In this document: positions 2,518-18,365 of the stretch, piece by piece
Numbering within the stretch: position 1 is the stretch's first letter
Layout of the letters: each line of letters opens with the position of its first letter
Source of the DNA: Patescibacteria group bacterium
Lineage (GTDB): Bacteria; Patescibacteriota; Patescibacteriia; Magasanikbacterales; GWA2-37-8
DNA: 64,000 bases
Assembly (NCBI GenBank): GCA_041651015.1
Contig: JBAZKA010000002.1
Span: 70,163-134,162 of the forward strand
Direction: 5' to 3'
Translations under genes and position numbers: made by a program
Notes under the pieces: model-generated
Database searches by the model: none
Told to the model about the DNA's origin: nothing
The model's input: the letters and a program-made list of their open reading frames with translations, nothing else

Positions 2518-2664
2518 GAAAACAAAAAAGGCCTTTGATTTCCGTTCGGCTAGCGCTTCGGGCAAGTATCTGATACCCCGTTGGGTTTACTAATTCATAT
2601 AATTATTGCTATAATTCTAATATACAATTCTATATTCTGCATTCAACATTCAATATTCTCTTTT

Positions 2665-3504
2665 ATGCTTTTCGGCGCCCACGTCTCAATTGCCGGCGGA
2701 CTGATAAACGCTCCCAAAAACGCGGCTGATTTGGGTTGCGAGGTTTTTCAAATGTTCACCCGTTCGCCTCAAGGTGGATTTGTCGCGCCTTTGGACGAAA
2801 ATATTGCCAAAGAATTCAAATCCGCTTGCAAAGAATTCGGTCAAAAAGAATGGTATGTGCACACGCCGTATTTTATCAATTTTGCTTCGGCCAACCCGCG
2901 CATCAAACACGCTTCCATCGCCGTGGTACGCGAGGAATTGGAACGCGCTTCCTTGCTTGGTGCTAAATATTTAATGACCCACCTTGGAAGTTTTGCTTCA
3001 CTCGGCAAAGAAAAAGGCTTTCCCCAATTAATCAAATCACTGGATGAAATGTTGAGCGGATACAAAGGCAAAACAAAATTTCTGATTGAAATATCGGCCG
3101 GCGCCGGTGAAATTATCGGTGGAAATTTTGAAAGCATTGCCGAAGTTATCAATCACCCGAAATTAATAAAATACGATATCGACGTTTGTTTCGACACACA
3201 GCACGCGTTTGCCTCGGGCTATGATTTGCGCGATGCAAGCGCAGTGAAAATAACTTTTGATACTTTTGATAAAATAATCGGTTTGGATAAATTAAAAATT
3301 TCTCATTGCAATGATTCCAAAACCGACTGTAATTCGCACAGCGACCACCACGCGCATATTGGCCAAGGTAAAATCGGAATTGAAGGATTCCGCGCGTTAA
3401 TCGCGGACAAACGCTTGACAAAAGTAAATTTCATTTTGGAAACAAAACCAGACGCGGTAAAAGAGGATTTGGAAATGTTAAAAAAACTTCGGTTGTCATT
3501 CTGA
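2665..3504 (+). CDS. nfo: endonuclease IV (AP endonuclease, TIM barrel)
   Basis: MLFGAHVSIAGG...FQMFTRSPQGG...HTPYFINFAS...FDTQHAFASGYD..HCNDSK motifs. Start taken at the in-frame ATG at 2665, preceded by a TGcTATAAT extended -10. Confidence 0.85.
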   Translation: MLFGAHVSIAGGLINAPKNAADLGCEVFQMFTRSPQGGFVAPLDENIAKEFKSACKEFGQKEWYVHTPYFINFASANPRIKHASIAVVREELERASLLGAKYLMTHLGSFASLGKEKGFPQLIKSLDEMLSGYKGKTKFLIEISAGAGEIIGGNFESIAEVINHPKLIKYDIDVCFDTQHAFASGYDLRDASAVKITFDTFDKIIGLDKLKISHCNDSKTDCNSHSDHHAHIGQGKIGIEGFRALIADKRLTKVNFILETKPDAVKEDLEMLKKLRLSF

Positions 3505-5029: not shown

Positions 5030-6448
5030 ATGAACAATGCCGAAATTTGGCAGGCCGTACTCGGAGAACTAGAGCTTTCCATCTCAAAAGCGAACTTTGT
5101 CACCTGGTTCAAAAACACCGGTATCATTACTGTCCAAGACGGACAAGTGATTTTGTGCGTACCCAACAACTTTGCTCAGGCTTGGTTTGAAAAAAAATAT
5201 CATCAAATGATAATTAAGTCGTTGGAACGCATCATGGGTAAACCGGTGCGCCGATTAGAATATAAAATAGACAACATTAAAAATTTAGTGGAACAGGCGG
5301 CGGCAGATTTACAAAACACCGCGGTTGAATCCTACAACACCTACGCGGACATGGCCGCCTCAGTGAATTCCACTGAACGTTCCGCCCCTCAACGCGCAGC
5401 TTCGCAAAACGGTGTATTTGTATTAAATCCAAAATATACTTTTGAAACTTTTGTCGTCGGTTCCGGATCAGAACTGGCTTATGCCGCGGCCAAGGCCGTG
5501 GCCGAACGTCCGGGCGAGGCGTACAATCCGCTTTTCATTTATGGCGGTGTCGGTTTGGGCAAAACCCATTTGATCCAAGCCCTGGGTAATCAGGTTCTGA
5601 AAAATAATCCGGCGGCGCGCGTGCTTTATGTGACCGCCGAGAAATTTTCCAATGATTTTATTCAATCGGTCAAAGATGGCAATGCGAAAGATTTTCAAAA
5701 TCATTATCGCAATATTGATTTGCTCATGATTGATGATATCCAATTCATCGCCGGCAAAGATCGCACGCAAGAATCTTTTTTTCATACTTTCAACGAGCTA
5801 CACCAGCAGAACAAACAACTTGTGCTCACTTCGGATCGTCCACCCAAAGCCATACCGGCGTTGGAAGACCGTTTGAAGTCGCGTTTTGAGTGGGGGATGA
5901 TCGCGGATATCACCATGCCGGACTTTGAAACTCGCGTCGCTATTTTACAAAAGAAATGCGCTGAGAAAAATTTTATTGGTATGGACGAAAGAATTCTCTC
6001 CGCCATTGCCGCCACCATCCAATCAAACATCCGCGAACTGGAAGGCTCGCTTAATAAAATTATCGCTTACCATCAACTGAAAAACATTACCCCTTCCGTG
6101 GAATCGGTTAAATCCGTGCTTTCATCCATTGAGGCGGCCTCCATGAAACAATCTTTAACCGCTAAACAGGTCTTGGAGACAGTCGGCTCCTTTTACAGCA
6201 TTCAAGCCGACATGATTATCAACAAAAGCCGGGAAAAACGCGTTTCTTACCCGCGCCAAATCATTATGTATTTGCTCCGAGAAGAACTCAAGATGTCTTT
6301 TCCAAATATTGGCAATGAATTAGGCGGGCGCGATCACACTACCGCCATGCATGCTTGTGAGAAAATCCACAATGACTTGGATAATAACCCCAAGCTTAAG
6401 CAAGAAATTGAATTAATCAAGCAACGCTTGTATATAAATAATGTCTAA
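5030..6448 (+). CDS. dnaA: chromosomal replication initiator DnaA
   Basis: GGVGLGKTHL Walker A, DDIQF..GK Walker B/sensor, and a C-terminal DnaA-box-binding HTH. Confidence 0.95.
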   Translation: MNNAEIWQAVLGELELSISKANFVTWFKNTGIITVQDGQVILCVPNNFAQAWFEKKYHQMIIKSLERIMGKPVRRLEYKIDNIKNLVEQAAADLQNTAVESYNTYADMAASVNSTERSAPQRAASQNGVFVLNPKYTFETFVVGSGSELAYAAAKAVAERPGEAYNPLFIYGGVGLGKTHLIQALGNQVLKNNPAARVLYVTAEKFSNDFIQSVKDGNAKDFQNHYRNIDLLMIDDIQFIAGKDRTQESFFHTFNELHQQNKQLVLTSDRPPKAIPALEDRLKSRFEWGMIADITMPDFETRVAILQKKCAEKNFIGMDERILSAIAATIQSNIRELEGSLNKIIAYHQLKNITPSVESVKSVLSSIEAASMKQSLTAKQVLETVGSFYSIQADMIINKSREKRVSYPRQIIMYLLREELKMSFPNIGNELGGRDHTTAMHACEKIHNDLDNNPKLKQEIELIKQRLYINNV

Positions 6449-6735
6449 TTTTGTGTATAACTTGTGGAAAAGTCGTCATTAACTCTGGATAACTTTCTTT
6501 CCTCATCCACAGAAATAAGTTATCATGCACAGTAAAATTTCCAAACCGATTTTCCTCCACCGGATACTCACATCGCAAAAAATCGGTTATCCACAAAAGC
6601 GAAGTATAAATTTATTTGATCTCAGCCAAAAAAAGAAATTATCCCCACTATTAACACCCCTTATTATTACTATTATATAAAAATATATAAATAATAATTA
6701 ATATAATAAACCCGTAAGTGCATAACTTTTAATTT
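6449..6735. promoter_or_regulatory. oriC right half: DnaA boxes plus an AT-rich unwinding element between dnaA and dnaN
   Basis: tggataact (6486-6494), tcatccaca (6504-6512) and a perfect ttatccaca (6596-6604), then an AT-only run of about 70 nt at 6640-6720. Confidence 0.65.
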
Positions 6736-7860
6736 ATGAAATTTACCTGCATAAAAGAAAATCTGGTAAGCGCCCTCTCGCTCGTCACCGGCCTGGCGAC
6801 CAAGAGCGTTAACTTGCCGATCCTTTCTAATTTATTAATTCGCGCCGATGAACAAAAAGTGGAAATCATATCCACGAATTTGGAGTTGGCCATTGCGGTC
6901 ACGGTGCGGGCCAAAGTGGAAGCGCCAGGGACATTTACCGTGCCGGCTAGAACCCTGACGGATTTTATCAGTTTGTTGACTGACGAGAAGATTGATTTGG
7001 AATTAAAAGACAATGAATTGGTGGTCTCGTGCGGAAAATCTTCTACCAAAATTAAAGGCATGCCGGCTGATGAGTATCCGGTGATTCCCACACCCGGAGA
7101 CGGTCAAGGCTTTGTGGTGACGGCCGAGGACTTGCGTAAAGGCCTCTCACAAGTGAATATTGCGGCCGCGAGAACGGAAATTCGTCCCGAGCTCTCCGGT
7201 GTGCTTTTTGCCTTTAATTTGGAGAATAGCGGGCATTTAGTATTGGCCGCGACCGATAGTTATCGTCTGGCTGAGAAGAAAATTAAAATCCAACAAGGCA
7301 AGGAAAGTTTCCGGGTGATTGTGCCCGGACGCACGGCCCAAGAAATGAGCCATATCTTATCCGCCTCCAATGAGTTGGGTGATGAAAAAAGCGTACGGGT
7401 GATTTTGACTGATAACCAGATTGCTTTGAATTTTAACAGCGTGCAGATGATTTCACGTTTGGTGGAAGGGCAGTATCCTGATTACACGCAAATTATTCCG
7501 CGTGAGTTTAGAACTGAGGCGCGCTTTTCCGCGACTAAAATGATTAAGGAAATAAAAGCCGCCAGCTTGTTTACCACTATTGGAGTGAATGCGGTTAATT
7601 GCGATGTTATGCCCGAGGAAAATGAAATTAAAATCGCCTCCACTTCCACGCAGACCGGTGAATATAAATCCGGCCTGGAAGCGGAAATCAAAGGCGAGAA
7701 AAATTCCGTCTTACTCAATCATAAATATTTTCTGGACGGCCTTAATTGTATTTCCGGCGATGATGCCATACTCAAAATTGTGAATGGCGACAGCCCGTGC
7801 GTGTTGTCCGAACAAAGCGATGCCAATTATTTGTATATCGTGATGCCAATTAGACAGTAA
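6736..7860 (+). CDS. dnaN: DNA polymerase III beta sliding clamp
   Basis: 374 aa in a three-domain clamp pattern, with an N-terminus typical of DnaN (MKF..KE.L...L......SVNLPILSNLLI). Confidence 0.95.
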   Translation: MKFTCIKENLVSALSLVTGLATKSVNLPILSNLLIRADEQKVEIISTNLELAIAVTVRAKVEAPGTFTVPARTLTDFISLLTDEKIDLELKDNELVVSCGKSSTKIKGMPADEYPVIPTPGDGQGFVVTAEDLRKGLSQVNIAAARTEIRPELSGVLFAFNLENSGHLVLAATDSYRLAEKKIKIQQGKESFRVIVPGRTAQEMSHILSASNELGDEKSVRVILTDNQIALNFNSVQMISRLVEGQYPDYTQIIPREFRTEARFSATKMIKEIKAASLFTTIGVNAVNCDVMPEENEIKIASTSTQTGEYKSGLEAEIKGEKNSVLLNHKYFLDGLNCISGDDAILKIVNGDSPCVLSEQSDANYLYIVMPIRQ

Positions 7861-7863
7861 AAA

Positions 7864-7894
7864 GTTTGTAAAGTTATAAAGTTGAAAGTTAAAA
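7864..7894 (+). repeat. dispersed AAAGTT-unit repeat, copy 1 (GTTTGTAAAGTTATAAAGTTGAAAGTTAAAA)
   Basis: Nearly identical (about 30/31) to the reverse complement of 61090-61125. Confidence 0.5.
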
Positions 7895-7920
7895 CACCGG
7901 CGGGGAGGCCGGTGTTTTGT
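7893..7920 (+). terminator. rho-independent terminator after dnaN
   Basis: acaccggc-gggga-ggccggtgt stem-loop followed by TTTTGTTG. Confidence 0.7.
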
Positions 7921-7995
7921 TGACAAATGATTCACGTTATGCAAATATATAGGACAACAAACAACAAAAGCGTTGCCCAACAGGGAGGTGTAAGA

Positions 7996-8334
7996 ATGGG
8001 TGAAAGGTACAAAGTGTTCTTTGTGATATTAAAATATGGCGAATTTCGTGATTTAAAGATGGGAAAGTTGAGCTTAGCGGACTTGGGTGAAGACCGTGAT
8101 CATACATTTTATCTGCGAGTGATTCCCAGATTGGGAGAGCAGGTAAAGTTTGATGTGTTGAACCTTGACACCACCCAAGAACCTGGTGGTATTACGGGCT
8201 TTGTTAAGGTGGTGGAGCACATACCGCGAGACCCAAGCAGCTTTGGTGTGCTTGTTGAAGCTGGAAATAAAGAATCCGAAAATTGGATTGGCCGACTTTT
8301 TGTTGGGGAGGAGGTAAACCCCTTTCGTTACTAA
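7996..8334 (+). CDS. hypothetical small protein
   Basis: ORF with a GGAGGT RBS before MGERYKV. A TTGACA-17-TATATA promoter lies at about 7920. No family recognised. Confidence 0.45.
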   Translation: MGERYKVFFVILKYGEFRDLKMGKLSLADLGEDRDHTFYLRVIPRLGEQVKFDVLNLDTTQEPGGITGFVKVVEHIPRDPSSFGVLVEAGNKESENWIGRLFVGEEVNPFRY

Positions 8335-8412
8335 GAATTTATTCTGGCAGCAGCACCTTTCACACACACTGAATTCAGACAGTTTGGCCTTCGGTATGAC
8401 CGGGGGCTTTTT

Positions 8413-11244
8413 TTATTCCACTATCACTTCCAAATCCTTGGTAAAAGTTTTTCCGCTGGTATCGGTCAGCACGCCGGAGAGAACATATGAACCAACGCCC
8501 GGGGAATTTTTCCAAGTGAAATTTAATTTATCCACGAGTAGTTTATCATTGTGGTCAAAAGTGTAAATCAATTTTTTGGCGTTGCCCTCGGAAATTAGTT
8601 GGATGGCGATATTTTTTACATCACTCCAACGGAACGGCAGGACACTGATGGAACGCGGAAAATCATCACTGCGAATTGTAAGGGGCGAACCATCGGTCCA
8701 TTGGAAACTCGGCGCGTCCTGTTCAGCGGTCAAGTTAAAAGTAATTTCTTGCATGGCGCTGTCGCCAATGTCATCTGTCGCGATAACCGAGAGAGTGTGC
8801 ACGCCTTGGGTGGCGCTTTTCAAATAATAATCCAAAGTAAATGGCAGGCTTCGGCTGACACCAATCACGTTGCCATCTAAACGATAATCCACCTCGGTGA
8901 TACCGCGCGGGGCCGAGGCGTTGACTTCAATGTGAAGCGTGCGCGAATTTAATGACGAACTGGCGATGGGTGAAATTATATTGATAGTCGGAGTGAGCGC
9001 GGGGTCGGAAGTAAATGTATCGGCTTCGGCCGGCGGTTCGGAAAAAGAAATCTCCCGGCCGGCGGTTTTTTCGCGAGCCACCCAAGATTGTAAGGCCGCC
9101 TCCCAGTTTTCATATTGTCCGTCAACAGTCGGGTCGGTCGGCATGGGCCCGCGCGGGTCATCTTTGTTTACATAATACAAAATATCGTGCGCCGGCATGA
9201 ATTCTTTTTCCGTGATAAGGGATTCGGGAGTGGATGAAGTGGCGAGTCGGCCATTCAAACGATTAATTTTAACTTTCATCACGCCATCAGTACCGCGGAG
9301 CACGGCCTTGTCCGCGTCATTGACCGGGGCTTCGGGAAATGTTTCGGGCGTAGTGGAGGCCAGGGCGAGCTTCATAAATCTATTCCAAATCTTTCCAGCC
9401 AGCGCGTTGCCACCGCCTTTCATGGGTGAGGGCATGGTATTGCCCACCCAAACACCGGCGGCGAGAGATGGCACATAGCCCATGGTCCAAGCGTCTTTGT
9501 TGTTATTGGTAGTACCGGTTTTGGCGGCGACTAATCTGCCCGGCAAAGTGAGCGTGCTGTTTCGTCCAAAGACATAAGCGCGGGCCGCGTCATCGGTTAA
9601 CACACTGGTAATGGTGGCGGCGATTTCCGGCTTTATGGCTTCCGTGCCCTCGGTGGTTTTGGTTGAATATAATTCATCGCCGTTCGCGTCAGTCACTTTT
9701 AAAATTGCCACAGTCGGATGATAACGCCCGTTATCCGCGAGCGTGGCATAGGCATTGGTGTGTTCCAATAAATTTACTTCAGCGCCGCCCAAGACGAGAG
9801 ACAAACCAAAATTTCCATCACTTAAAGTAGTATAGCCAAACCGCTCGGCAAAATCCGACATATATTTTTCGCCGACTAAGTACAAAGTTTTGACGGCCGG
9901 AATATTTAACGATCCCTGCAATGCTTTGCGCATGGTGACCAAGCCGTGTTCGGTCCCATCATAATTTTTTGGCGTATAATCTCCGCCGGTGCGCATATCA
10001 AAGTTTGTGGTGACATCATAAAGCACGGTGTCCGGCGTGTAACCCTTTTCAAACGCGGCCGAATAGACAAGCGGTTTAAATGATGAGCCCGGCTGGCGTT
10101 TGCCCAGCACGGCCACATTGTATTGGCCGTCAATATCATCATTAAAATAATCGCGCGAACCAACCATGGCCAGTATTTCCGCGGTTTTTGGGTCAATGGC
10201 CACCAAAGCGGCATTGTTCGCGTTTGCGTCTTTGGCAAATTGATCGCCGAGTTCTTTTACCGCCGACTCGGCGATTTTTTGTTTGTCATAATCCAACGAA
10301 GTGATCACTTTGAGGCCTGACTGGTCAACCATTGATTCGCCAAATTGTTCGGCCAATAGTTGTTTGACATACAAAACAAAATGGGGCGCATCAGTAATAC
10401 CATTGGTGCGCGTGATTTTTAGCGCCTCGGCTTGGGCCGTGGTTTTTTCCGTTTCAGTGATGTAGCCTTGATCAAACATTAAACGCAAAACTAAATTGCG
10501 CCGTTCTTTAAGCGACTCGGTATCGTTTAAATATTTAGTCGGCTGTTTGAGTAAAGCCGCGAGAGTGGCTGATTCAGCCAAGGTTAAATCCTTGGCGGAT
10601 TTTTGAAAATAACTTTGCGAGGCGGATTCAATGCCATAGTTGGTGGAGCCGTAGGGGATCTCATTTAAATACATTTTGATAATTTGATCTTTGGTATATT
10701 TTTTTTCTAAACGCAAGGCCAGAATCGCTTCTTTGAGTTTGCGGAAATATGAATGAGAATCGCCGACAATGGCATTTTTGATTAATTGTTGCGTCAGAGT
10801 GGAAGCGCCGCCCGAGCCGGCCTTTCGTCCGATTAAATTATTAAAAGCGGCGCGCAAGATGGAAAGAATTTTTACTCCGCTGTGTTCGTAAAAGGTTTTA
10901 TCCTCCACGGCAATGGTGGCTTTGATGGCGTATGGTGCAATTTGGTACAGGTCCACCATGGTACGTTTCTGGTCTTGGTAAACTTCGTAAAGTAAATGTT
11001 CGCCCGTGCGGTCATAGATCTTGGTGCTTTGGGCCACCTGGCGCTCGGAAAGTTTTTCCGGGTCAGGCAATTCTTTGGAAATAATGGCCACGGCAATGGT
11101 GCCGGCGATAAAACCGGCCAGCAACAAACAAAGCGCGGTCAAAATAAGCGGCTTGAACCATTTGCGTTTGGGTTTTTTTGGTTTTTCAGAGCGCAGATCA
11201 CCGTAGGCGCGTCTTTGTCTGGCAACCAGCTGTTGAATAGGCAT
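8413..11244 (-). CDS. class A penicillin-binding protein (glycosyltransferase + transpeptidase) with a C-terminal beta-rich extension
   Basis: N-terminal TM segment, GT51 motifs (EDKTFYEHSG..., RKAGSGGASTLTQQL), transpeptidase SxxK/SxN/KTG motifs, and about 300 extra C-terminal residues. Confidence 0.85.
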   Translation of the reverse strand: MPIQQLVARQRRAYGDLRSEKPKKPKRKWFKPLILTALCLLLAGFIAGTIAVAIISKELPDPEKLSERQVAQSTKIYDRTGEHLLYEVYQDQKRTMVDLYQIAPYAIKATIAVEDKTFYEHSGVKILSILRAAFNNLIGRKAGSGGASTLTQQLIKNAIVGDSHSYFRKLKEAILALRLEKKYTKDQIIKMYLNEIPYGSTNYGIESASQSYFQKSAKDLTLAESATLAALLKQPTKYLNDTESLKERRNLVLRLMFDQGYITETEKTTAQAEALKITRTNGITDAPHFVLYVKQLLAEQFGESMVDQSGLKVITSLDYDKQKIAESAVKELGDQFAKDANANNAALVAIDPKTAEILAMVGSRDYFNDDIDGQYNVAVLGKRQPGSSFKPLVYSAAFEKGYTPDTVLYDVTTNFDMRTGGDYTPKNYDGTEHGLVTMRKALQGSLNIPAVKTLYLVGEKYMSDFAERFGYTTLSDGNFGLSLVLGGAEVNLLEHTNAYATLADNGRYHPTVAILKVTDANGDELYSTKTTEGTEAIKPEIAATITSVLTDDAARAYVFGRNSTLTLPGRLVAAKTGTTNNNKDAWTMGYVPSLAAGVWVGNTMPSPMKGGGNALAGKIWNRFMKLALASTTPETFPEAPVNDADKAVLRGTDGVMKVKINRLNGRLATSSTPESLITEKEFMPAHDILYYVNKDDPRGPMPTDPTVDGQYENWEAALQSWVAREKTAGREISFSEPPAEADTFTSDPALTPTINIISPIASSSLNSRTLHIEVNASAPRGITEVDYRLDGNVIGVSRSLPFTLDYYLKSATQGVHTLSVIATDDIGDSAMQEITFNLTAEQDAPSFQWTDGSPLTIRSDDFPRSISVLPFRWSDVKNIAIQLISEGNAKKLIYTFDHNDKLLVDKLNFTWKNSPGVGSYVLSGVLTDTSGKTFTKDLEVIVE

Positions 11245-11413
11245 AAAAATCCTCCCTAGAATAAATATATATCATATTATATACCAGCGAGGAAGATTTT
11301 TCAACGAAGGGTAAGCCCTTGACAAAAACCCTTCCCTGTGCTATACTTTTCTGTTAATATAATGTCGAGAAATATCCTGTATAGGATATTTTTTCGCTTA
11401 AATAAGCGGAAAT

Positions 11414-12115
11414 ATGAAATTTAACTTGACCAAAACCTTATATACTAGCGGAAAGTACTGGATTTTAGCCATTGCTGTTGTTTTGGCTAGCGCCATTGTC
11501 TTTTCCACTCCGGCCGAGGCTGAAATCGCTGATATTAGCCAAAAGACCTGTGCTTTTACAGATTTTGACCGCTATACGGCCCTCTATTACCGCCAAACCA
11601 AGGAAAAAGAGGTTAAATCCAGTGAAACGATTGTTTCTATTACTGATGAGGCTTCCAGAGCCAAAAAACAGGCCTCTTTGATTGAGGAAGCGAAGACCGA
11701 GGAGTTGTCTAATGCCAACGAGACTCTTTTGATGAATTCCAAGAAGATCGCTGATGCGGTGGAAACATCCGAGGAAAAGCCGGACAAGGTCGTGAACGTG
11801 GTCATGACTGCCTACACCTCCACTCCGGACCAGACTGATGACACGCCGGACATCGCCGCTTCGGGCAAACACGTTTATGATGGCATGTTGGCCGCCAACT
11901 GGTTGCCCATGGGTACCAAAGTAAAAATTCCGGAATTATATGGTGATAAAATTTTTACCATTGATGACCGCATGAACAAACGTTATGGCTATGGCCGTAT
12001 GGATATCTGGTTGGACACAACCAAAGCCGAGGCCAGAAAATTCGGTGTCAAACGTTTGACTGTGGAGATCTATTACGCGCACGCTGAGCCGAAAGAATTG
12101 GCTGTGGCGAAATAA
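11414..12115 (+). CDS. secreted 3D-domain (MltA/YocH/RlpA-like) cell-wall-binding protein
   Basis: N-terminal signal/TM segment. C-terminal MTAYTS..DTPD.AASG..V..G..AAN.LP.GT...I....D.......DRM is the 3D-domain pattern. Confidence 0.6.
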   Translation: MKFNLTKTLYTSGKYWILAIAVVLASAIVFSTPAEAEIADISQKTCAFTDFDRYTALYYRQTKEKEVKSSETIVSITDEASRAKKQASLIEEAKTEELSNANETLLMNSKKIADAVETSEEKPDKVVNVVMTAYTSTPDQTDDTPDIAASGKHVYDGMLAANWLPMGTKVKIPELYGDKIFTIDDRMNKRYGYGRMDIWLDTTKAEARKFGVKRLTVEIYYAHAEPKELAVAK

Positions 12116-12126
12116 AAATATATTTA

Positions 12127-12161
12127 AAAACCGTCTGGCGTGATGCCGGGCGGTTTTTTTG
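12127..12161 (+). terminator. rho-independent terminator
   Basis: aaaaccgtctggcg...gccgggcgg stem-loop followed by a T7 run. Confidence 0.65.
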
Positions 12162-12174
12162 TTCGTCACCAGTA

Positions 12175-12203
12175 TTGACATTTGTATATAAATGTGCTAT
12201 ATT
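12175..12203 (+). promoter_or_regulatory. strong sigma70-like promoter of a short GC-rich transcription unit
   Basis: TTGACA (12175-12180), 17-nt spacer, TATATT. Confidence 0.55.
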
Positions 12204-12256
12204 GATTAGCCAAATTGTTTTGGTCAAAATCGCACCTTCCCAAAAAGGGGGTAATC

Positions 12257-12310
12257 ATGAACAGTCGTTGGTCGTTTTTTATCGGCGTGGTCGCCGCAGG
12301 AAAGGAGTAG
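12257..12310 (+). CDS. candidate 17-aa small ORF (MNSRWSFFIGVVAAGKE)
   Basis: AAGGGGGT SD 5 nt upstream of the ATG. Lies inside the 12175-12530 transcription unit. Confidence 0.25.
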   Translation: MNSRWSFFIGVVAAGKE

Positions 12311-12314
12311 CTCA

Positions 12315-12470
12315 ATGTGGCAATCATTTTCTTTTGGTTCTCTCGGTGCGTACGAGTATGAGTATGACCGGTATGGTTATACCGGCTGGTACCGCTGTGC
12401 TGGTGGCCGCCTCGCGGACGGCCGTTGGCCCGAGTGGAACTTCAAAACCGGCGCGACCCGCTATCGCTGA
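12315..12470 (+). CDS. candidate 51-aa Tyr/Trp/Gly-rich small protein (MWQSFSFGSLGAYEYEYDRYGYTGWYRCAGGRLADGRWPEWNFKTGATRYR)
   Basis: AAGGAG SD 7 nt upstream of the ATG. The alternative 119-aa frame starts at a TTG inside the -35 hexamer and is Arg/Pro-rich, which looks like an out-of-frame artefact. Confidence 0.3.
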   Translation: MWQSFSFGSLGAYEYEYDRYGYTGWYRCAGGRLADGRWPEWNFKTGATRYR

Positions 12471-12487
12471 GGCAGCACGTCGCGACA

Positions 12488-12530
12488 AACGCCCACCTAG
12501 TAGGAAATCCGAACGGCGGGCATTTTTATT
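12488..12530. terminator. bidirectional hairpin terminator (ends the + small unit and the minus-strand racemase gene)
   Basis: gcccacc-N19-ggcgggc followed by ATTTTTATTTT on the + strand. On the minus strand the same stem is followed by GTTTGTCG. Confidence 0.55.
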
Positions 12531-13215
12531 TTAATGCATATTCCGCGGCCGTCTCTGCATGTATCCTCATTGTGTCAAACAGCGGAATGTTTACATCGGC
12601 CTGTTGAACTAATAGAGGTATTTCCGTGCAACCGAGTATGACGGCTTCGGAGCCTTTGTTCGCTAAATTATTTATAATGCTTAAATATTTTTCTCTCGCT
12701 CCCGGACTGTGGATTCCTTGGCAGGCATTGTTTATTTCCTGCTGCAAAATATCTTGTTCTGATTCGTCGGGTAACAGGATATTTATTCCGTGTTTTTCTC
12801 GCATTCGGTCTTTGTAAAATTTTTCGCGCATCGTCAGCTTTGTCCCCATTAGACCAACCGTGGTATATCCGGCGGATATTATTTTGTCAGCAGTCGCTTC
12901 AACGATGTGTAAAAGAGGGATTTGAATGCTATTTTGGATTTCATCGGCGAGGATGTGCACGGTATTGGCCGCCAATATGATAAAATCTGCGCCACCGCGC
13001 TCCAAATTTTTTGCCGCGTCAGTTAGGATTTTATCGGATTTTTCCCATGCAACAGTACTATGCTCCAAGTCAATTTCATCAAAATCCACCGATTGCATCA
13101 AAATTTTGGCCGAATGCCAGCCACCAAGTTGGTTTTGAATTGTTTCGTTGATGATGCGGTAATATTCCAATGAAGAATGCCAGCTCATCCCGCCGATAAT
13201 TCCGATTGTTTTCAT
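12526..13215 (-). CDS. aspartate/glutamate/hydantoin racemase family protein
   Basis: 229 aa, MKTIGIIGGMS start and ...ILGCTE... second half are typical of the Asp/Glu racemase family. Confidence 0.8.
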   Translation of the reverse strand: MKTIGIIGGMSWHSSLEYYRIINETIQNQLGGWHSAKILMQSVDFDEIDLEHSTVAWEKSDKILTDAAKNLERGGADFIILAANTVHILADEIQNSIQIPLLHIVEATADKIISAGYTTVGLMGTKLTMREKFYKDRMREKHGINILLPDESEQDILQQEINNACQGIHSPGAREKYLSIINNLANKGSEAVILGCTEIPLLVQQADVNIPLFDTMRIHAETAAEYALK

Positions 13216-13544
13216 AAAGGTGATTAGCGTTTTGACAATAAAATTTTTCCGTTTTTAATTAACACGAGATAAGAAGCGAGGGCGAGTTTAAAGCGTTCTT
13301 TGGGCATGGGGTTAGAATAATAAGTCTCTTTATTCTAATGTATGGGCTATAATTAGAATAAGGCAATAGGGGTTGGTATGAACTTTTAGGTGGTTGTGGA
13401 GCGGAGAAGGCAGGTTATTTTCGCAATACTATTATTTAGTGTAAATTCTATCTAATCATAATATTTGGTAGTTGTTCGTAAGTGGCCGTTTTTAGCCAAA
13501 ATTTGGTCGTTATTTAGATGTGTGTTTACCTAATATTACCTAAA

Positions 13545-15197
13545 TTAATTTTTGTTAGTTGTTTTTAGTGTCCATTGAGGATTTTTGCTTGTGCCCTTGT
13601 TGGTAATAGTCAAGTCTCTTTTCGAGAGATCGTATAAAAGGTTGTCAATCTTTTTTAACTTTTGTTTTTTATCTAATACAGCTGGAAGTAGGTCCATCAA
13701 CAATTTATTGATATCTTGTCGCGAGGCGTTATTATACTTTTCGAGATATTCCCTTATTAATTTTTTATAATGTTCATTGTGGAATCCTCTATTTTTTATA
13801 TATTGCGCCCTCTCTCCCGTAGTGCCGGCAACATGTTCCGAGATATACAGATTTGGATACCTACCCTCAATTAAATTTTTTTCTTTAAGTTTTCTTGCGC
13901 CAGCTTTAGAAATTCGCCTAACTTTTTGAATTTGGTCAAGAAGCATAATCTCTAAGAGAGTAAGATCTTTATGGTGCGCCAGTATTCTTGCATAGTTAAT
14001 ATCTAGAACTTTTCCATGAATAGTAACTGCTACTTTATTATCCGTTAGGTCATAGTCTGGTAATGGAAAAAATTTATTTTTTTGTAAAGTAAACATCCGC
14101 TTAATACCGCTACCGATTGTATCTATCATGTTTAAATTTACCATCGCTTCGGACAGGTGTTTATTTTGATAATACTCTTGTGGTGAGTCAGCTGTAACGA
14201 CGGATTCAATTGTACCTGGTAAAAAACATCCCTTGTTCGTGAATAGAAGCCATCCTGCTTCGTTTTCAACGACCTGTATACGACCGTGCAAAGAATAATC
14301 CTGATGGGCGATGCAGTTATGCAACGCTTCTCTGATAACATACGGATCGTACATATCAACCTCTTCGGGGAAAAGAGATCCGTCTTTTATATATCTATAT
14401 TTTAGATTTCGGATTTTATTAAAGAGGCCGTCAACAGACAGCAAAAATGGACAATAAAAGTGTTCGTAGTCTTTTTCTTCCCCGTCCTTTCCTTTTAAAA
14501 TCCATGAAATTTGAGATACTGCCGATGATATAAGCGCGCTTGATTCCGGTTTTCCAAGAAGAATGATTGCGGTGTTGGTCACGCGACCTTTGATAGTGAG
14601 TTTCGCTTTATCTAAAAATTCTTCGTCGGTCCATTCGTCGACCTCGTTCGCCAGTCGAAGATTCTTTTTTTAAAAATTATTTCTCGCAACATCAATCGCC
14701 GTTGGATCGAGGTCTGCCAATGAAGCTCTATCGCAGATAGCGGCTGACCAGTCTGGTGCTGTCTCGCGACGAATCGCAGTTTCTGTTTCTTCGTCCATCT
14801 CCATCAATTCCTCGCCGATCCTCATAAGAGGAATACCGTAGAATTTTAATGGAGTACCTATTTTCCGAGACGGAATGGTTACCACTACAATACGTTTAGA
14901 TTCATGGTCGGTTATTTCTTGGATATCGATATGCATGCCTATTTGTTGGTAGATTTTTGACTTAACGTCTTCAAAATTTTCTAGGGCCGATGTTCCAACT
15001 ATTTTGCGAGGTATCTTGTCAGAAACCCCCAGTATTAGTTTTCCACCCCTCATATTTCCAAGTCCAACGCAATATCCCAAGACAGAATATCTATTTTTTT
15101 CAGCACCAAGAACGGAAAATGAACTTTTCGCCTCCTTGAACTCTAAACGTTCTTTTTCTCTCGATTTCATCAGTTCATTTAGCTCTTCTAGTGTCAT
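13545..15197 (-). pseudogene. AlbA_2 (divergent AAA, N-terminal) + HATPase_c_4 (C-terminal) RecG-C-like putative regulator gene, interrupted by a single in-frame TAA (14670-14672)
   Basis: ORF 14670-15197 has the AlbA_2 LEFKE motif. ORF 13545-14582 (GTG start) has REALHNCIAHQDY (HATPase_c_4). Both are in the same frame and the 29 codons between the TAA and the GTG read through cleanly (KKNLRLANEVDEWTDEEFLDKAKLTIKGR). Confidence 0.55.
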
Positions 15198-15269
15198 ATA
15201 TTATTTATTAATTTCGGTGTCAAATACCCACAACTGGTAAATTAAATGTATCACTCATCCCGCGTATTT

Positions 15270-16793
15270 TCAATACACCCCCTCCATGGACCTATACTGC
15301 AACGCCTCGGCCATGTGAGCAGGCTGAATTGTGTCGCTAACGCTGAGGTCGGCGATGGTGCGCGCCACTTTGAGCAAACGGTTGTAAGCGCGGGCGGATA
15401 AGTGCAAACGCGTGACCGCATTTTCTAAAATACTAAGCGTGGCCGAGTCCACGGCGCAAAAATCCCGCAGTTCGCGGTTGGACATTTCACTGTTGAGGGA
15501 AATCGGCGCGTTGAGGAAGCGTTCATATTGGCGTTGGCGCGCGCCGAGCACGCGGGCGCGGATTTTATCCGATGTTTCCGCGACCGCGCCCGATGACATT
15601 TCTTCAAAATTTATTCTCGGCACGTTGATGTGCAAATCTATTCTATCCAAAATCGGTCCGGAAATTTTTTTGCGATAATTATTTATTTGCGAAGTGGAAC
15701 ACGTGCATGGATGGTCCGGGTCATTGGCATAACCGCAGGGGCAAGGATTTTGCGAGGCTATCAAAATAAATCTGGCGGGAAAAGATAAAGTGCCTTGCAC
15801 GCGGGAAATGGAAATCGTGCCATCTTCCAGAGGCTGGCGCAAAGTTTCCAAAACCGAACGGGGGAATTCGGGAAACTCATCCAGAAATAAAACTCCGCGA
15901 TGAGCCAGGGAAATTTCTCCGGGTTTGGGCCATTTGCCTCCGCCGACCAAGGCCGCGCCTGAGATGGTGTGATGAGGTGAACGGAACGGCCGGGCGCGCA
16001 CGATTGTCCCGCGGATTAGTCCGGCAATGGAATAAATTTTCGTCACTTCCAATGATTCATCCTGATTTAATTCGGGCAAAATTGACGGTAATGTCCGCGC
16101 GAGCAAAGTTTTGCCCGAGCCGGGCGGGCCGATCATAATGACATTGTGCCCGCCCGCGGCCGCGATTTCCAAAGCGCGTTTGGCAAATGATTGCCCGCGC
16201 ACAAGCGACATATCTAGAGATGTGGAAGAGAATTCCGATGAGGCCGGTTCACTGCTCGGCACATATGGCGCGATTGGTTCTTCGCCCAAGAGGTGGGCCA
16301 TCATTTGCCGTAGATTTTTTACCGGAAAAATTGTTGGACCGTCTTTGACCAAGGCCGCTTCCGGCGCGTCGCACTCGGGCAAGAATAATCTGGCGATACC
16401 GTGAGCGCGCGCGTGAATGGCAATGGGCAAAACGCCGTTCACATGGCGCACAGAGCCGTCCAAAGCCAATTCCCCGACAATCAGGGCATCGGATAAATCT
16501 ATAGGTAAATCCTGGCTGGCCGCGATCAGGCCAACGGCCATGGGCAAATCATAAATCGGGCCTTCTTTGGGCAAATCAGCCGGCGCGAGGTTGATTAACA
16601 GCCGGAAATTAAAGGGATAATCAAAGCCTGAGTTTTTGATAGCCGAGTACAAACGTTCTTTGGCTTCGCGGATTGACGCATCCGGCAAGCCGACAATTTG
16701 AAAATTTGTTTGTCCTTTGTTGATGTCAATCTCTACGTCAATCGGTGATGATTCAAGCCCAATAATCGCTGCCGCCGGCAGTTTGTAAAACAT
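15270..16793 (-). CDS. comM: Mg-chelatase-like AAA+ ATPase ComM/YifB
   Basis: N-terminal Lon-like domain, Walker A GPPGSGKT, Walker B LFLDEFPEF, and a C-terminal Mg_chelatase_C region. Confidence 0.9.
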   Translation of the reverse strand: MFYKLPAAAIIGLESSPIDVEIDINKGQTNFQIVGLPDASIREAKERLYSAIKNSGFDYPFNFRLLINLAPADLPKEGPIYDLPMAVGLIAASQDLPIDLSDALIVGELALDGSVRHVNGVLPIAIHARAHGIARLFLPECDAPEAALVKDGPTIFPVKNLRQMMAHLLGEEPIAPYVPSSEPASSEFSSTSLDMSLVRGQSFAKRALEIAAAGGHNVIMIGPPGSGKTLLARTLPSILPELNQDESLEVTKIYSIAGLIRGTIVRARPFRSPHHTISGAALVGGGKWPKPGEISLAHRGVLFLDEFPEFPRSVLETLRQPLEDGTISISRVQGTLSFPARFILIASQNPCPCGYANDPDHPCTCSTSQINNYRKKISGPILDRIDLHINVPRINFEEMSSGAVAETSDKIRARVLGARQRQYERFLNAPISLNSEMSNRELRDFCAVDSATLSILENAVTRLHLSARAYNRLLKVARTIADLSVSDTIQPAHMAEALQYRSMEGVY

Positions 16794-17027
16794 ATAAAAA
16801 ACAGATTTGAGAAAAAATAAGTATTAACAGATATATACGAAATACGAAAAATACGAAATTACGAAAATAATGGTTAACGTTTGGGGCGAGACGAAACGGG
16901 TATTTGTTAGAGGGCCATATTGGAGCGAGCTCGGAGCGAGCGGAAATCGAGCAAGGCGAGCCCACAGGCGAGCCGCGCGTGTCCGAAACAAATATCCGTG
17001 AGTCAAGCCACAGGATAAACAAAAAAA
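16794..17027. repeat. short tandem repeats in the comM upstream region
   Basis: Four copies of (A)TACGAAA(A) at about 16838-16878, then five copies of GAGCGAGC/GGCGAGC at about 16921-16975. Confidence 0.5.
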
Positions 17028-17474
17028 TTACTCCGGCAATCTTTTGTAGCTTTTCAGGACGATAGCTATTGCGCCAAAGACGATGAAGACGTCGGCGATA
17101 TTGAAGTTGCTCGTAAGAAGAAGAAAGTAATCGTGGACTGAACCAAAGTATAAGCGGTCAAAAAAATTCAGTAGAGCACCGGCTAAAATGAAACTTAATG
17201 AGGCGATGATCAAATTATCTCGCGATTCATGCAAGTGGAAATACCAGATAAGCAGGGCAATAAATATCACCGAGAGAATAAGAATAATGTTTGGCGGTAC
17301 ATACAAACCAAACGCAATTCCCGAGTTGACCGAGGGATACCAGCCAAATAAATTTTTAAAAGCCACCACGCTATCCCAGCGAGTAATGGAAAAATAACGC
17401 AGAATGATATCCGCGCCAAATAAAAAAACGCCAATTGCGTAAGTCAAGATAAGGCGTTTTTTGTTTGATTGCAT
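17028..17474 (-). CDS. lspA: lipoprotein signal peptidase II
   Basis: NSGIAFG, FNIADVFI and four TM segments. Start taken at the ATG with a GGAGGG RBS (MQSNKKR). Confidence 0.85.
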   Translation of the reverse strand: MQSNKKRLILTYAIGVFLFGADIILRYFSITRWDSVVAFKNLFGWYPSVNSGIAFGLYVPPNIILILSVIFIALLIWYFHLHESRDNLIIASLSFILAGALLNFFDRLYFGSVHDYFLLLTSNFNIADVFIVFGAIAIVLKSYKRLPE

Positions 17475-17492
17475 AAGTCCCTCCAAAAAACT

Positions 17493-17879
17493 TTACAATT
17501 CCTGAGTGATAGTTTTTTTGCACTCCACACAGGCGGACGAAGTCGGGCGGACGAGCAAACGTTTTTCTTCAATTGGTTTCTTGCAGTATTTGCAAGTGCC
17601 GTAAGTGCCTTTTTTAATCCGTTCCAGAGATTTGTTTACATCACGCAAGGTTTTTTCCAAACCCTCTTCCACCGGCAGGTTGTTGATATACTCGGCGACC
17701 TCGGCGGCATTCTCGTCTTCTTTGTCGCCATACTCGGGGAATTGAGTATCAAAATCATCAGACACATGAGCGCTCTTTTTGGTAAATTTGCCCAGTTCTG
17801 ATTCTAGTTTGGTTTTTTGTTCCTGTAATAAATTTTTGATTTTGTCCAAAAATTCTTTGGAAAATGATGGCTTGGCCAT
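17493..17879 (-). CDS. DksA/TraR-family C4 zinc-finger protein
   Basis: N-terminal coiled coil plus CKYCKKPI...CVECK zinc finger. Confidence 0.7.
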   Translation of the reverse strand: MAKPSFSKEFLDKIKNLLQEQKTKLESELGKFTKKSAHVSDDFDTQFPEYGDKEDENAAEVAEYINNLPVEEGLEKTLRDVNKSLERIKKGTYGTCKYCKKPIEEKRLLVRPTSSACVECKKTITQEL

Positions 17880-17990
17880 ATAATTCTATTTAGCCGGACC
17901 TCGGCTGGATTATGCAAGTATTATAGTCCAATTCGTGATTTTTGTCCACAGGTCTAGCCGAGTCTGGCTCGCACCTTTGCGTAGTCACTA

Positions 17991-18365
17991 TTATTCCTTT
18001 TCATCTTGAACAAATTTTTCCCACATTTTTATTGAGTCGCCTAAAATTTGAATAGCGGCCGGATCCGTCATAGTCTTTAGAGCGGTTTTTGCCTCTCTCA
18101 ACCAGATCTCTCGGATATTGATACCCGGCGCCATTTCGCAGGGTTTTACCAAATGCGCGATAAATCCTTTGGCCACTTCCATATCAGATTTTGATCTCGC
18201 TGACGGTTCTTTGTATTCAAAATTGTTCATATTAATTATTTTAAAACACGTATTAAATATACTCCGAAAATCCGCAATAAACAAGCTGAGCAATTTTAAA
18301 AGGCCTACGCCCATATTACAATGTTGTTTTAAGGCGAGGCCTTTAGATTGTCCACGAGTAAGCAT
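17991..18365 (-). CDS. hypothetical protein
   Basis: ORF with an AAGGGG SD. No family recognised. Driven by the conserved promoter module at 18642-18670. Confidence 0.4.
   Translation of the reverse strand: MLTRGQSKGLALKQHCNMGVGLLKLLSLFIADFRSIFNTCFKIINMNNFEYKEPSARSKSDMEVAKGFIAHLVKPCEMAPGINIREIWLREAKTALKTMTDPAAIQILGDSIKMWEKFVQDEKE

What the first reader, a model, noticed from the sequence alone, without database searches (positions are those of the whole stretch)
12175..12530. Compact GC-rich transcription unit with a consensus promoter, two SD-led mini-ORFs (17 aa and 51 aa, Tyr/Trp/Gly-rich) and its own terminator
A TTGACA-17-TATATT promoter, two short ORFs each with a near-perfect SD (AAGGGGGT and AAGGAG), and a GC hairpin plus U-tract terminator fit within about 350 nt. 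GC is about 58% in an otherwise AT-rich region. No larger gene is served. The 51-aa product MWQSFSFGSLGAYEYEYDRYGYTGWYRCAGGRLADGRWPEWNFKTGATRYR is aromatic- and glycine-rich, as small secreted or modified peptides or RiPP precursors often are. The track's 119-aa frame starts at a TTG inside the -35 box and looks like an artefact. Alternatively the unit encodes a structured sRNA.
Basis: seen in the sequence. Interest (0 to 1): 0.55.

Follow-up and report, generated by a model that had tools for sequence, protein, structure and literature searches.

The report
Small conserved protein gene, function unknown
This stretch is a real, self-contained gene for a 51-residue protein from a small, unnamed family found in ultra-small bacteria, an archaeal-type contig and some phages; it is not a modified-peptide precursor or a structured RNA, and its function is unknown.

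Summary
A near-consensus promoter (TTGACA-17-TGcTATATT, 12175-12203), two SD-led ORFs (12257-12310 and 12315-12470) and a hairpin plus T-tract (12491-12532) lie between an upstream gene with its own terminator and a convergent racemase gene.

The 51-aa ORF is a genuine protein-coding gene, annotated MFA5127706.1, hypothetical protein, Patescibacteria. Homologs of 40-90 aa occur in Patescibacteria, Obscuribacterales MAGs, an archaeal-type contig and two IMG/VR viral contigs. In 11 codon-aligned DNA copies, third positions differ twice as often as first or second positions. Invariant residues use 4-5 synonymous codons and synonymous sites are saturated. The 119-aa frame carries stops in 8 of 10 homologs.

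AlphaFold gives a confident all-beta mini-fold (pLDDT 93.6) with no significant Foldseek neighbour. There is no hit in Pfam, NCBIfam, PHROGs, PADLOC or Rfam, and no conserved neighbour gene.

The RiPP, secreted-peptide and sRNA readings are not supported. The excess GC comes mainly from amino-acid composition. The 17-aa upstream ORF has a strong SD but is absent from the closest homolog's cassette. That cassette shares only the coding sequence and the 3' hairpin with the window.

Function is unknown. The gene most plausibly encodes a soluble binding module carried as a mobile accessory gene.

The parts
12126..12158 (+). Intrinsic terminator of the upstream 233-aa gene (11414-12115). It marks the left boundary of the unit.
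   Evidence: 15-pair stem followed by a T run
12175..12203 (+). Sigma-70-type promoter: -35 TTGACA, 17-nt spacer, extended -10 TGcTATATT.
   Evidence: 11 of 12 matches plus TG; this class is about 8-fold enriched over shuffles, and about 50-fold for sites with TG
12210..12314 (+). Inferred 5' leader of about 105 nt. The transcription start is inferred from the position of the -10 element. The leader is not alignable to the leader of the closest homolog.
   Evidence: inference; no transcript data
12244..12310 (+). Upstream mini-ORF with its SD: AAAGGGGGT, ATG at 12257, 17 codons (MNSRWSFFIGVVAAGKE), stop at 12308-12310, five bases before the main ATG. Its status is unproven.
   Evidence: SD pairing -11.3 kcal/mol. 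It is not present in L023. A predicted hairpin pairs its U-run with the main SD, but z = -0.5.
12302..12307 (+). Shine-Dalgarno sequence AAGGAG of the 51-aa gene, 7 nt before the ATG.
   Evidence: -7.5 kcal/mol
12315..12470 (+). Coding sequence of the 51-aa protein MWQSFSFGSLGAYEYEYDRYGYTGWYRCAGGRLADGRWPEWNFKTGATRYR, stop codon included.
12491..12532 (+). 3' hairpin (7-bp stem with one A.C mismatch, 17-nt loop) plus T-tract. It is the likely terminator of the unit. On the minus strand the same stem is fully paired (with one G.U pair) and lies directly after the racemase stop codon (12526-12528), so it probably serves both convergent genes.
   Evidence: It is 29/31 identical in L023, where a C-to-T change restores the mismatched pair.

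Best explanation
The region is a monocistronic small-protein gene, or a leader-ORF plus main-ORF unit. A strong sigma-70 promoter drives a transcript of about 320 nt. A ribosome loads at a good SD and translates a 51-residue protein, and transcription stops at a hairpin plus U-tract shared with the convergent racemase gene.

The protein belongs to a conserved but unnamed family with the core W-Q..G.YEYE.D..GYTGW.RC.GGRLADGRWPEWN..TG..RY. It has no signal peptide or membrane segment and is predicted to fold alone into a compact five-stranded beta structure rich in Tyr and Trp. The family is scattered through Patescibacteria, Obscuribacterales, an archaeal-type contig and phage contigs, always without a fixed partner gene.

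Shown here: the gene is coding, conserved and under purifying selection; the expression signals are present; a confident fold is predicted.

Inferred only: it acts by binding a ligand or a partner protein through the invariant GGRLADGRWPEW loop and the aromatic surface, and it travels as a mobile accessory gene between these organisms and their phages.
For: Homologs exist. tblastn finds relatives at 60-71% identity in unrelated MAGs. There are 11 clusters at 90% identity, 84 representative clusters with E <= 1e-3 and 34 with E <= 1e-10, 73 more by profile search, 49 metagenome loci and 2 IMG/VR contigs.

The substitution pattern is that of a coding sequence. Mean pairwise difference by codon position is 0.31/0.27/0.62. 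Invariant Gly, Arg, Leu, Ala and Pro columns use 4-5 synonymous codons, including CGN/AGG and CTN/TTG switches. pS is 0.73-0.97 against pN of 0.22-0.38 versus the window. Only this frame is open in all copies. NCBI annotates the same ORF.

The expression signals are documented. The closest homolog, L023 (80% aa identity), also has its own TTGACT-17-TGgTATTAT promoter, an SD and the same 3' hairpin.

The predicted fold is confident: pLDDT 83 with 11 sequences and 93.6 (pTM 0.71) with 80 sequences.

The gene is stand-alone. In a crude ORF-based survey, 27 of 40 loci have a divergent upstream gene or an upstream gap of at least 60 nt, and 32 of 37 are followed by a gap or a convergent gene. No neighbour family recurs.
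Against: There are no transcript or peptide data. Function is not addressed by any direct evidence. Pfam, NCBIfam, PHROGs and PADLOC give nothing, and all sources call the protein hypothetical. Foldseek finds no significant neighbour in PDB or BFVD. The mobility inference rests on patchy distribution, two viral contigs and one cassette flanked by inverted repeats next to an integrase. In the window itself the gene sits among housekeeping genes near dnaA and dnaN. Bins of uncultivated organisms can contain mis-assigned phage contigs.
Confidence: 0.85

Rival explanations
1. The product is a RiPP precursor or a small secreted or modified peptide. The Tyr/Trp/Gly-rich peptide would be processed by a tailoring enzyme and exported.
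For: The peptide is aromatic- and glycine-rich (7 Tyr, 4 Trp, 3 Phe and 8 Gly in 51 residues). It is short and has its own promoter.
Against: No radical-SAM, YcaO, lanthipeptide, protease or ABC-exporter gene lies within about 7 kb. No neighbour family occurs more than twice among 135 neighbours of about 45 loci. Conservation is strongest in the middle and C-terminal part, with no leader/core split. The chain is predicted to be a compact folded domain. The N-terminus has no signal-peptide features.
Confidence: 0.03
2. The unit is a structured small RNA, or a dual-function RNA whose ORFs are incidental.
For: It is GC-richer than its flanks, has its own promoter and terminator, and is about 320 nt long. 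The 3' hairpin, including its loop, is more conserved than synonymous sites between the window and L023.
Against: No Rfam family matches at gathering score or at E <= 10 within the unit. The plus-strand fold has z = -0.02 against shuffles. Leader and terminator z-scores are about -0.5. Variation is concentrated at third codon positions, with synonymous codon-family switches. The excess GC sits at second codon positions (0.58 against 0.30-0.44 in other genes), which reflects amino-acid composition.
Confidence: 0.03
3. The protein is a free-standing WD40-like blade that assembles into a homo-oligomeric beta-propeller.
For: There is a local sequence resemblance in the same register to WD40 blades. 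RACK1 [23 protein letters not shown] matches at E = 0.021 in a PDB profile search. The WD40 protein P0095 matches at GHTDWVRCIGVLPDGRV against GYTGWYRCVGGRLADGRW. hhalign gives 93% probability over 19 columns. Natural oligomeric propellers are rare and of evolutionary interest (PMC9218822, PMC6805158).
Against: With the broader 80-sequence profile the RACK1 hits fall to E of about 1. P0095 is one protein picked from 1.8 billion, so the hhalign P-value is biased by selection. None of the 80 members hits Pfam WD40 even at E <= 10. The GH and WD dipeptides are replaced by GY and WQ. AlphaFold gives a confident compact monomer whose strands 12-18 and 21-28 form a hairpin, unlike a blade. Foldseek matches to Kelch and WD40 proteins have TM of about 0.3.
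Confidence: 0.06
4. It is a phage-derived accessory gene acting in phage-host conflict, for example an inhibitor or sponge that binds a host or phage factor.
For: Family members lie in strings of small overlapping ORFs on a 138-kb and an 89-kb IMG/VR contig. Others lie next to GmrSD and MmeI-type restriction genes, next to an integrase within inverted repeats, next to a transposase-like gene and inside vWA-PP2C-kinase gene strings. In the window an AlbA_2/HATPase_c_4 pair lies about 1 kb away. The phyletic distribution is patchy and crosses domains.
Against: There is no PADLOC or PHROG match and no hit in 50,697 deposited phage genomes or 72,556 plasmids. Most neighbours are housekeeping genes such as tRNA synthetases, L31, RF1, MraZ/MraW, NusA and PBP1A. 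No defence gene recurs.
Confidence: 0.15
5. The 17-aa upstream ORF is translated and couples or gates translation of the 51-aa gene. This is compatible with the best explanation.
For: Its SD pairing is the fifth strongest of 1,896 ATGs in the window. Its stop codon lies 5 nt before the main ATG. The predicted leader hairpin pairs the U-run inside the upstream ORF with the main SD.
Against: The leader structure is no more stable than shuffles (z = -0.5). The closest homolog has a 55-nt leader with no such ORF. Other homologs start directly behind an SD or another gene. Roughly half of the strongest SD-ATG sites in the window are not gene starts.
Confidence: 0.25

Closest known systems
Uncharacterised small-protein (ORFan-like) genes of Patescibacteria and other uncultivated lineages
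   Same: It is a short, stand-alone ORF annotated only as a hypothetical protein (MFA5127706.1, WC457_01730). Its relatives occur only in metagenome-derived sequences.
   Different: It is not a singleton. There are at least 84 clusters at 50% identity, a sharply conserved core and a confident predicted fold.
Phage morons (self-contained promoter-ORF-terminator cassettes; recalled from the HK97/HK022 literature, not checked here)
   Same: It has its own near-consensus promoter, SD and terminator. Relatives occur on viral contigs, and one relative's cassette is bounded by inverted repeats beside an integrase.
   Different: In the window it lies among chromosomal housekeeping genes near dnaA, dnaN and PBP1A, not inside a recognisable prophage.
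WD40 repeat blade (RACK1-type)
   Same: It shows a local motif resemblance over about 19-25 residues: W..LG....Y....G(H/Y)T.W.RC.G..(P/A)DGR.
   Different: There is no Pfam WD40 match. The GH/WD signature is not kept. The similarity weakens with a broader profile, and there is no structural match.
Small SH3-like or KOW-like beta barrels (EF-P domain I, retroviral integrase C-terminal domain, Tudor)
   Same: It is a five-stranded all-beta domain of about 50 residues. These folds are the top, though non-significant, Foldseek hits.
   Different: E-values are at least 0.7 and TM-scores at most 0.48. The long invariant loop at residues 29-38 has no counterpart, so no homology is claimed.
RiPP precursor peptides
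   Same: The length and the aromatic- and Gly-rich composition are similar.
   Different: There is no tailoring enzyme nearby or co-conserved, no leader/core architecture, and the chain is predicted to be globular.

Membership tests
RiPP precursor peptide | A maturation enzyme (radical SAM, YcaO, lanthipeptide synthetase, etc.) is encoded next to the precursor and co-conserved with it. | tested here: not met
   Pfam scan of the window genes from 5030 to 20705 shows DnaA, DnaN, PBP1A, racemase, HATPase_c_4, AlbA_2, a ChlI-like ATPase, LspA and a phosphoesterase. No neighbour family occurs more than twice among 135 neighbours, and there are no recurrent neighbour clusters.
RiPP precursor peptide | Bipartite leader/core organisation; the peptide is not an autonomously folded domain. 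| tested here: not met
   Conservation spans residues 2-50 with an invariant central loop. The AlphaFold model has pLDDT 93.6.
Secreted small peptide | An N-terminal signal peptide or a dedicated exporter. | tested here: not met
   The N-termini read M(T/x)xWQ..G.YEYE, with no hydrophobic stretch. No exporter is adjacent. No signal-peptide predictor was available.
Structured non-coding RNA (any Rfam family) | A covariance-model match at the gathering score. | tested here: not met
   The whole window was scanned at gathering score, and 12050-12650 at E <= 10. Nothing lies inside the unit except a chance 17-nt snoRNA fragment and an antisense MicA hit at E = 9.5.
Structured non-coding RNA (any Rfam family) | Folding energy beyond composition, and substitutions that preserve base pairs rather than codons. 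| tested here: not met
   z = -0.02 on the plus strand. Codon-position differences are 0.31/0.27/0.62, with synonymous codon-family switches.
WD40 repeat | A match to the WD40 profile, with the GH...WD signature. | tested here: not met
   None of the 80 members hits Pfam WD40 at E <= 10. GH is GY and WD is WQ in the alignment. The PDB profile hit to RACK1 has E = 0.021, falling to about 1 with the broader profile.
WD40 repeat | A four-stranded blade that packs with other blades into a propeller. | not testable with these tools
Phage moron | Its own promoter and terminator flank a single ORF. | tested here: met
   The same layout is seen in L023.
Phage moron | Inserted between genes of a prophage or phage genome. 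| tested here: not met
   The window neighbours are chromosomal housekeeping genes. Only some relatives are on viral contigs.
The unnamed WQ..YEYE..YTGWxRCxGGRLADGRWPEWN small-protein family | A significant full-length profile match and the conserved core motif. | tested here: met
   phmmer gives E from 1.7e-10 to 8.5e-17 to 10 other clusters. The family profile gives 84 hits, 34 of them at E <= 1e-10. The invariant residues are listed.

The most novel reading that the evidence does not exclude
The 51-aa protein is the founding described member of a mobile mini-protein family with a previously unseen all-beta fold. The family is exchanged among Patescibacteria, Obscuribacterales, DPANN-like archaea and their phages as a self-contained cassette. 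It acts in phage-host conflict by sequestering a ligand or factor through its invariant GGRLADGRWPEW loop. A variant of this reading is that it is a natural free-standing propeller-like blade.
Probability: 0.15. Interest if true: 0.6.

Novelty: new member of a known kind. Interest (0 to 1): 0.35.

Why it matters
The result turns an ambiguous GC-rich intergenic island into a firmly supported small-protein gene. It defines a conserved family that no curated library names. The family is restricted to uncultivated, small-genome lineages and their phages.

The protein is short enough to synthesise chemically and is predicted to fold on its own. That makes it a tractable target for structure determination and binding screens, and a useful positive control for small-ORF callers in Patescibacteria genomes. 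Without a function it remains of moderate interest.

Tried and rejected
- **Rfam:** scans at gathering score and at E <= 10 found nothing.
- **tRNA/tmRNA:** the ARAGORN scan found nothing in the unit.
- **RNA folding:** both strands, the leader and the 3' end showed no stability beyond shuffles on the sense strand.
- **Family libraries:** Pfam, NCBIfam, PHROGs and PADLOC on the protein and on 80 relatives gave no family. The only hits were single weak ones to beta-hairpin repeat families (choline-binding, RHS, Tcp10_C), which I rejected as compositional.
- **Fusion proteins:** larger proteins carrying the domain have no Pfam domains.
- **Deposited phages and plasmids:** tblastn found no match.
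- **Guilt by association:** about 45 non-redundant loci gave no recurrent partner.
- **WD40 homology:** I pursued this lead and downgraded it.
- **L008 (Catellatospora):** a spurious motif match inside a 509-aa protein.
- **P0081 and P0095:** a repeat protein (TPR-like by eye) and a WD40 protein that are tail hits, not family members.
- **P0110:** a mis-clustered 460-aa sequence.
- **Literature:** a search for the core motifs found no paper.
- **Antisense 54-aa ORF (12324-12488):** rejected because its first codon position would be the most variable one, and because that frame carries stops in the window and in 4 of the 10 homologs.

Full report
**1. What is in the sequence**

The stretch lies between a 233-aa gene (11414-12115, +) and a convergent Asp/Glu racemase gene (12526-13215, -; Pfam PF01177). 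The 233-aa gene has its own 15-pair terminator at 12126-12158.

The promoter is TTGACA (12175-12180), a 17-nt spacer and TATATT (12198-12203), preceded by TG at 12195-12196. Such sites are not chance in this genome. The window holds 14 sites with at least 11 of 12 matches against 1.7 in shuffles. Eight of them carry the TG extension against 0.15 expected. Several precede genes or tRNAs, for example 11319 before the 233-aa gene and 24063 before tRNA-Ala.

From an inferred start near 12210, a leader of about 105 nt contains one ATG, at 12257. It is preceded by AAAGGGGGT and opens a 17-codon ORF that ends 5 nt before the main ATG at 12315. The main ATG is preceded by AAGGAG. Pairing energies with a canonical anti-SD are -11.3 and -7.5 kcal/mol, in the top 0.3% and 1.4% of the 1,896 ATGs in the window.

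The 51-codon ORF ends at 12470. At 12491-12521 there is a 7-bp GC stem with one A.C mismatch and a 17-nt loop, followed by TTTTTATTTT. The scan did not list it because of the loop length, and its energy is ordinary. On the minus strand the same stem is fully paired, with one G.U pair, and lies immediately after the racemase stop codon. It probably ends both convergent transcripts.

GC content is 58% over 12300-12500 against 41-46% nearby and about 44% for the window.

**2. RNA or protein?**

Rfam gives nothing in the unit at gathering scores or at E <= 10, and ARAGORN finds no tmRNA. The sense-strand fold is exactly as stable as shuffled sequence (z = -0.02).

The 51-aa frame, by contrast, has relatives. 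A scan of one genome per species found 60-71% identical translated matches in two Candidatus Obscuribacterales MAGs, two unclassified MAGs and, as a remnant, a Falkowbacteria MAG. A sixth hit, in Catellatospora, is a chance motif inside a 509-aa protein.

The protein database holds the window's protein as MFA5127706.1, 'hypothetical protein WC457_01730 [Patescibacteria group bacterium]', on a 241-kb contig. Ten other clusters match at E from 1.7e-10 to 8.5e-17. A profile of these finds 84 clusters at 50% identity with E <= 1e-3, 34 of them at E <= 1e-10, among 1.84 billion representatives. Nearly all are 40-90 aa. A second profile search lists 73 clusters, all unnamed or 'hypothetical' and without Pfam domains.

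I threaded the DNA of 11 copies onto the protein alignment.
- Mean pairwise difference is 0.31, 0.27 and 0.62 at codon positions 1, 2 and 3.
- Columns with an invariant amino acid use up to five synonymous codons: Gly GGA/C/G/T, Arg CGA/CGC/CGT/AGG, Leu CTA/C/G/T/TTG, Ala GCA/C/G/T and Pro CCA/C/G/T.
- Against the window copy, the proportion of synonymous differences is 0.73-0.97 (saturated) and of non-synonymous differences 0.22-0.38.
- Only this frame is free of stops in all copies. The frame of the 119-aa TTG ORF has stops in 8 of 10 homologs, and no antisense frame is open throughout.

This settles the point.

The excess GC is mostly at second codon positions (0.58 against 0.30-0.44 in other genes). 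It reflects the Gly/Arg/Ala/Trp/Pro-rich composition. GC3 is only slightly raised (0.62 against 0.34-0.57).

**3. The protein**

The family core is W-Q-x-x-G-x-Y-E-Y-E-x-D-x-x-G-Y-T-G-W-x-R-C-x-G-G-R-L-A-D-G-R-W-P-E-W-N-x-x-T-G-x-x-R-Y. The window protein has 7 Tyr, 4 Trp, 3 Phe, 8 Gly and a net charge of about +2. Other members are near neutral. There is one conserved Cys, so no metal-binding cluster is expected. There is no hydrophobic N-terminus or membrane segment.

AlphaFold2 predicts a compact all-beta domain with strands at 2-6, 12-18, 21-28, 39-42 and 48-50, and a long loop at 29-38 that carries the invariant GGRLADGRW. Confidence rises from pLDDT 83 with 11 sequences to 93.6 (pTM 0.71) with 80 sequences.

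No Pfam, NCBIfam, PHROG or PADLOC model matches the protein. Scanning all 80 members against Pfam at E <= 10 gives only scattered single hits. Larger proteins that end in this domain have acidic or unknown N-terminal parts with no Pfam domain.

**4. A WD40 lead that did not hold**

The 11-sequence profile hits one blade of RACK1 in the PDB at E = 0.021, and a WD40 protein appears at the tail of the large search. hhalign of the family against that protein's blades gives 93% probability over 19 columns.

Several results count against the lead.
- The protein was selected from 1.8 billion for that very similarity.
- The RACK1 hits drop to E of about 1 with the broader profile.
- No member matches Pfam WD40.
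- The signature dipeptides are not kept.
- The predicted monomer is not a blade.

I keep this as a low-probability rival. It would interest those who study propeller origins (PMC9218822, PMC6805158).

**5. Genomic context and mobility**

In the window the gene lies about 4.5 kb from dnaN and 6 kb from dnaA. On one side are PBP1A and the 233-aa gene. On the other are the racemase, an HATPase_c_4 and AlbA_2 gene pair, a ChlI-like ATPase and LspA. None is a peptide-maturation enzyme.

Elsewhere the family sits in very different places.
- In strings of small overlapping ORFs on a 138-kb and an 89-kb IMG/VR contig.
- Between a GmrSD-type gene and arginyl-tRNA synthetase on a contig that also encodes ribosomal protein S17e, which is an archaeal marker.
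- Beside RF1 and L31, MraZ/MraW, NusA, tRNA synthetases, a transposase-like gene, and inside vWA-PP2C-kinase strings.

Among 135 neighbours of about 45 non-redundant loci, no Pfam family occurs more than twice. All-against-all BLAST finds recurrent neighbours only between closely related contigs. In a crude ORF-based survey, 27 of 40 loci have a divergent upstream gene or an upstream gap of at least 60 nt. In 32 of 37 the gene is followed by a gap or a convergent gene. The gene is thus typically a stand-alone or terminal unit with no obligate partner.

The closest relative, L023 (80% aa identity), is instructive. It has its own TTGACT-17-TGgTATTAT promoter, a 55-nt leader without any upstream ORF, an SD, and the same 3' hairpin as the window. 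That hairpin is 29/31 identical, with the loop nearly unchanged and a C-to-T change that repairs the A.C mismatch. The promoter and leader are not alignable. In L023 the cassette is bracketed by a perfect 25-nt and a 21-nt inverted repeat and is followed by a tyrosine-integrase gene. The window has no such repeats.

Another Patescibacteria contig, L029, has the gene between dnaN and PBP1A. This is partly syntenic with the window, but the gene is on the other side of PBP1A.

There are no matches in 50,697 deposited phage genomes or 72,556 plasmids, and no paper contains the core motifs.

**6. The upstream 17-aa ORF**

Three points favour it. Its SD is among the five strongest SD-ATG pairs in the window. 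Its stop abuts the main start. A predicted hairpin pairs its U-run with the main SD, which would allow translational coupling.

Three points count against it. That hairpin is not more stable than chance (z = -0.5). The ORF is absent from L023 and from other homologs, whose genes start directly behind an SD or a preceding gene. About half of the strongest SD-ATG sites in the window are not gene starts.

It remains unproven. I give it about one chance in four of being functional.

**7. Verdict**

What it encodes is a conserved, soluble mini-protein of an unnamed family. It is not a RiPP precursor, a secreted peptide or an sRNA.

The mechanism up to the protein is standard and well supported: promoter, SD-led translation, shared terminator. 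What the protein does is not known. From the invariant Arg/Asp/Trp loop, the aromatic surface, the lack of a partner gene and the patchy cross-domain and phage distribution, I infer a small binding module carried as a mobile accessory gene. This last step is inference only.

It is a new, undescribed family of an ordinary kind of gene. Interest is moderate to low until a function or structure is obtained.

Noticed in passing
window 24362-24661 (+): A tRNA-Phe(GAA)-like gene appears to be split in its anticodon loop by a group I intron (Rfam Intron_gpI, 24387-24604, 72.5 bits). The 5' exon is GCCGAGGTAGCTCAGTGGTAGAGCGAAGGACTGAA and the 3' exon is AATCCTTGCGTCGCGAGTCCGATCCTCGCCCTCGGCA. ARAGORN did not call this tRNA. 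The exons were read by eye.
   Followed up: partly
window 24204-24349 (+): A GC-rich insert of about 145 nt directly after tRNA-Ala ends with CCGAATCCCCGTCGGTCCAC. This repeats the 3' end of that tRNA, which may be a scar of integration at the tRNA.
   Followed up: no
L023 1953-2402: The closest homolog's promoter-gene-terminator cassette is bracketed by inverted repeats: 25 nt at 100% (1953-1977 with 2378-2402) and 21 nt at 95% (1991-2011 with 2341-2361). A tyrosine-integrase gene lies about 200 nt downstream (2596-3432). The repeat was not found in any other fetched locus.
   Followed up: partly
window 12491-12521 and L023 2301-2331: The 3' hairpin, including its 17-nt loop (TAgTAGGAAATCCGAAC), is 29/31 identical between two cassettes whose coding sequences are only about 80% identical and whose leaders are unrelated. 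The loop is thus more conserved than a terminator would need.
   Followed up: partly
window 13545-14582 and 14670-15197 (-): HATPase_c_4 and Schlafen AlbA_2 domains are encoded by two adjacent ORFs with an 87-nt gap. This may be a split or frameshifted gene, or a two-gene variant.
   Followed up: no
window, gene starts throughout: Many long ORFs have A/T-rich upstream regions (for example ...TATATG) and no detectable SD. A minority, including PBP1A at 11244 and ORFs starting at 7996, 48109, 533, 19012 and 17474, have very strong SDs. Several longest-ORF starts are probably wrong, for example 48013 against 48109 and 7927 against 7996.
   Followed up: partly
L007 4977-5096 (also L068, L069): The Falkowbacteria copy keeps only the C-terminal half of the family. 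It has an in-frame TGA after MYCV, and the conserved Cys is replaced by Ser. It is probably a decaying remnant.
   Followed up: partly
L058 74-4432; L063 and L065 1253-7940: Divergent family members sit inside gene strings encoding a vWA-like protein (assigned by eye from its sequence), a PP2C phosphatase, the small protein, one or two unknown proteins, a 165-194-aa zinc-ribbon-like protein and a kinase-like protein, on contigs of about 115 kb. The zinc-ribbon-like protein also occurs near the small gene in L030 and L051.
   Followed up: partly
L029 2021-7366: A 253-kb Patescibacteria contig carries dnaN, a 152-aa ORF, the small gene and PBP1A (convergent). It is in the same origin-proximal neighbourhood as the window, but the small gene is on the opposite side of PBP1A.
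   Followed up: partly
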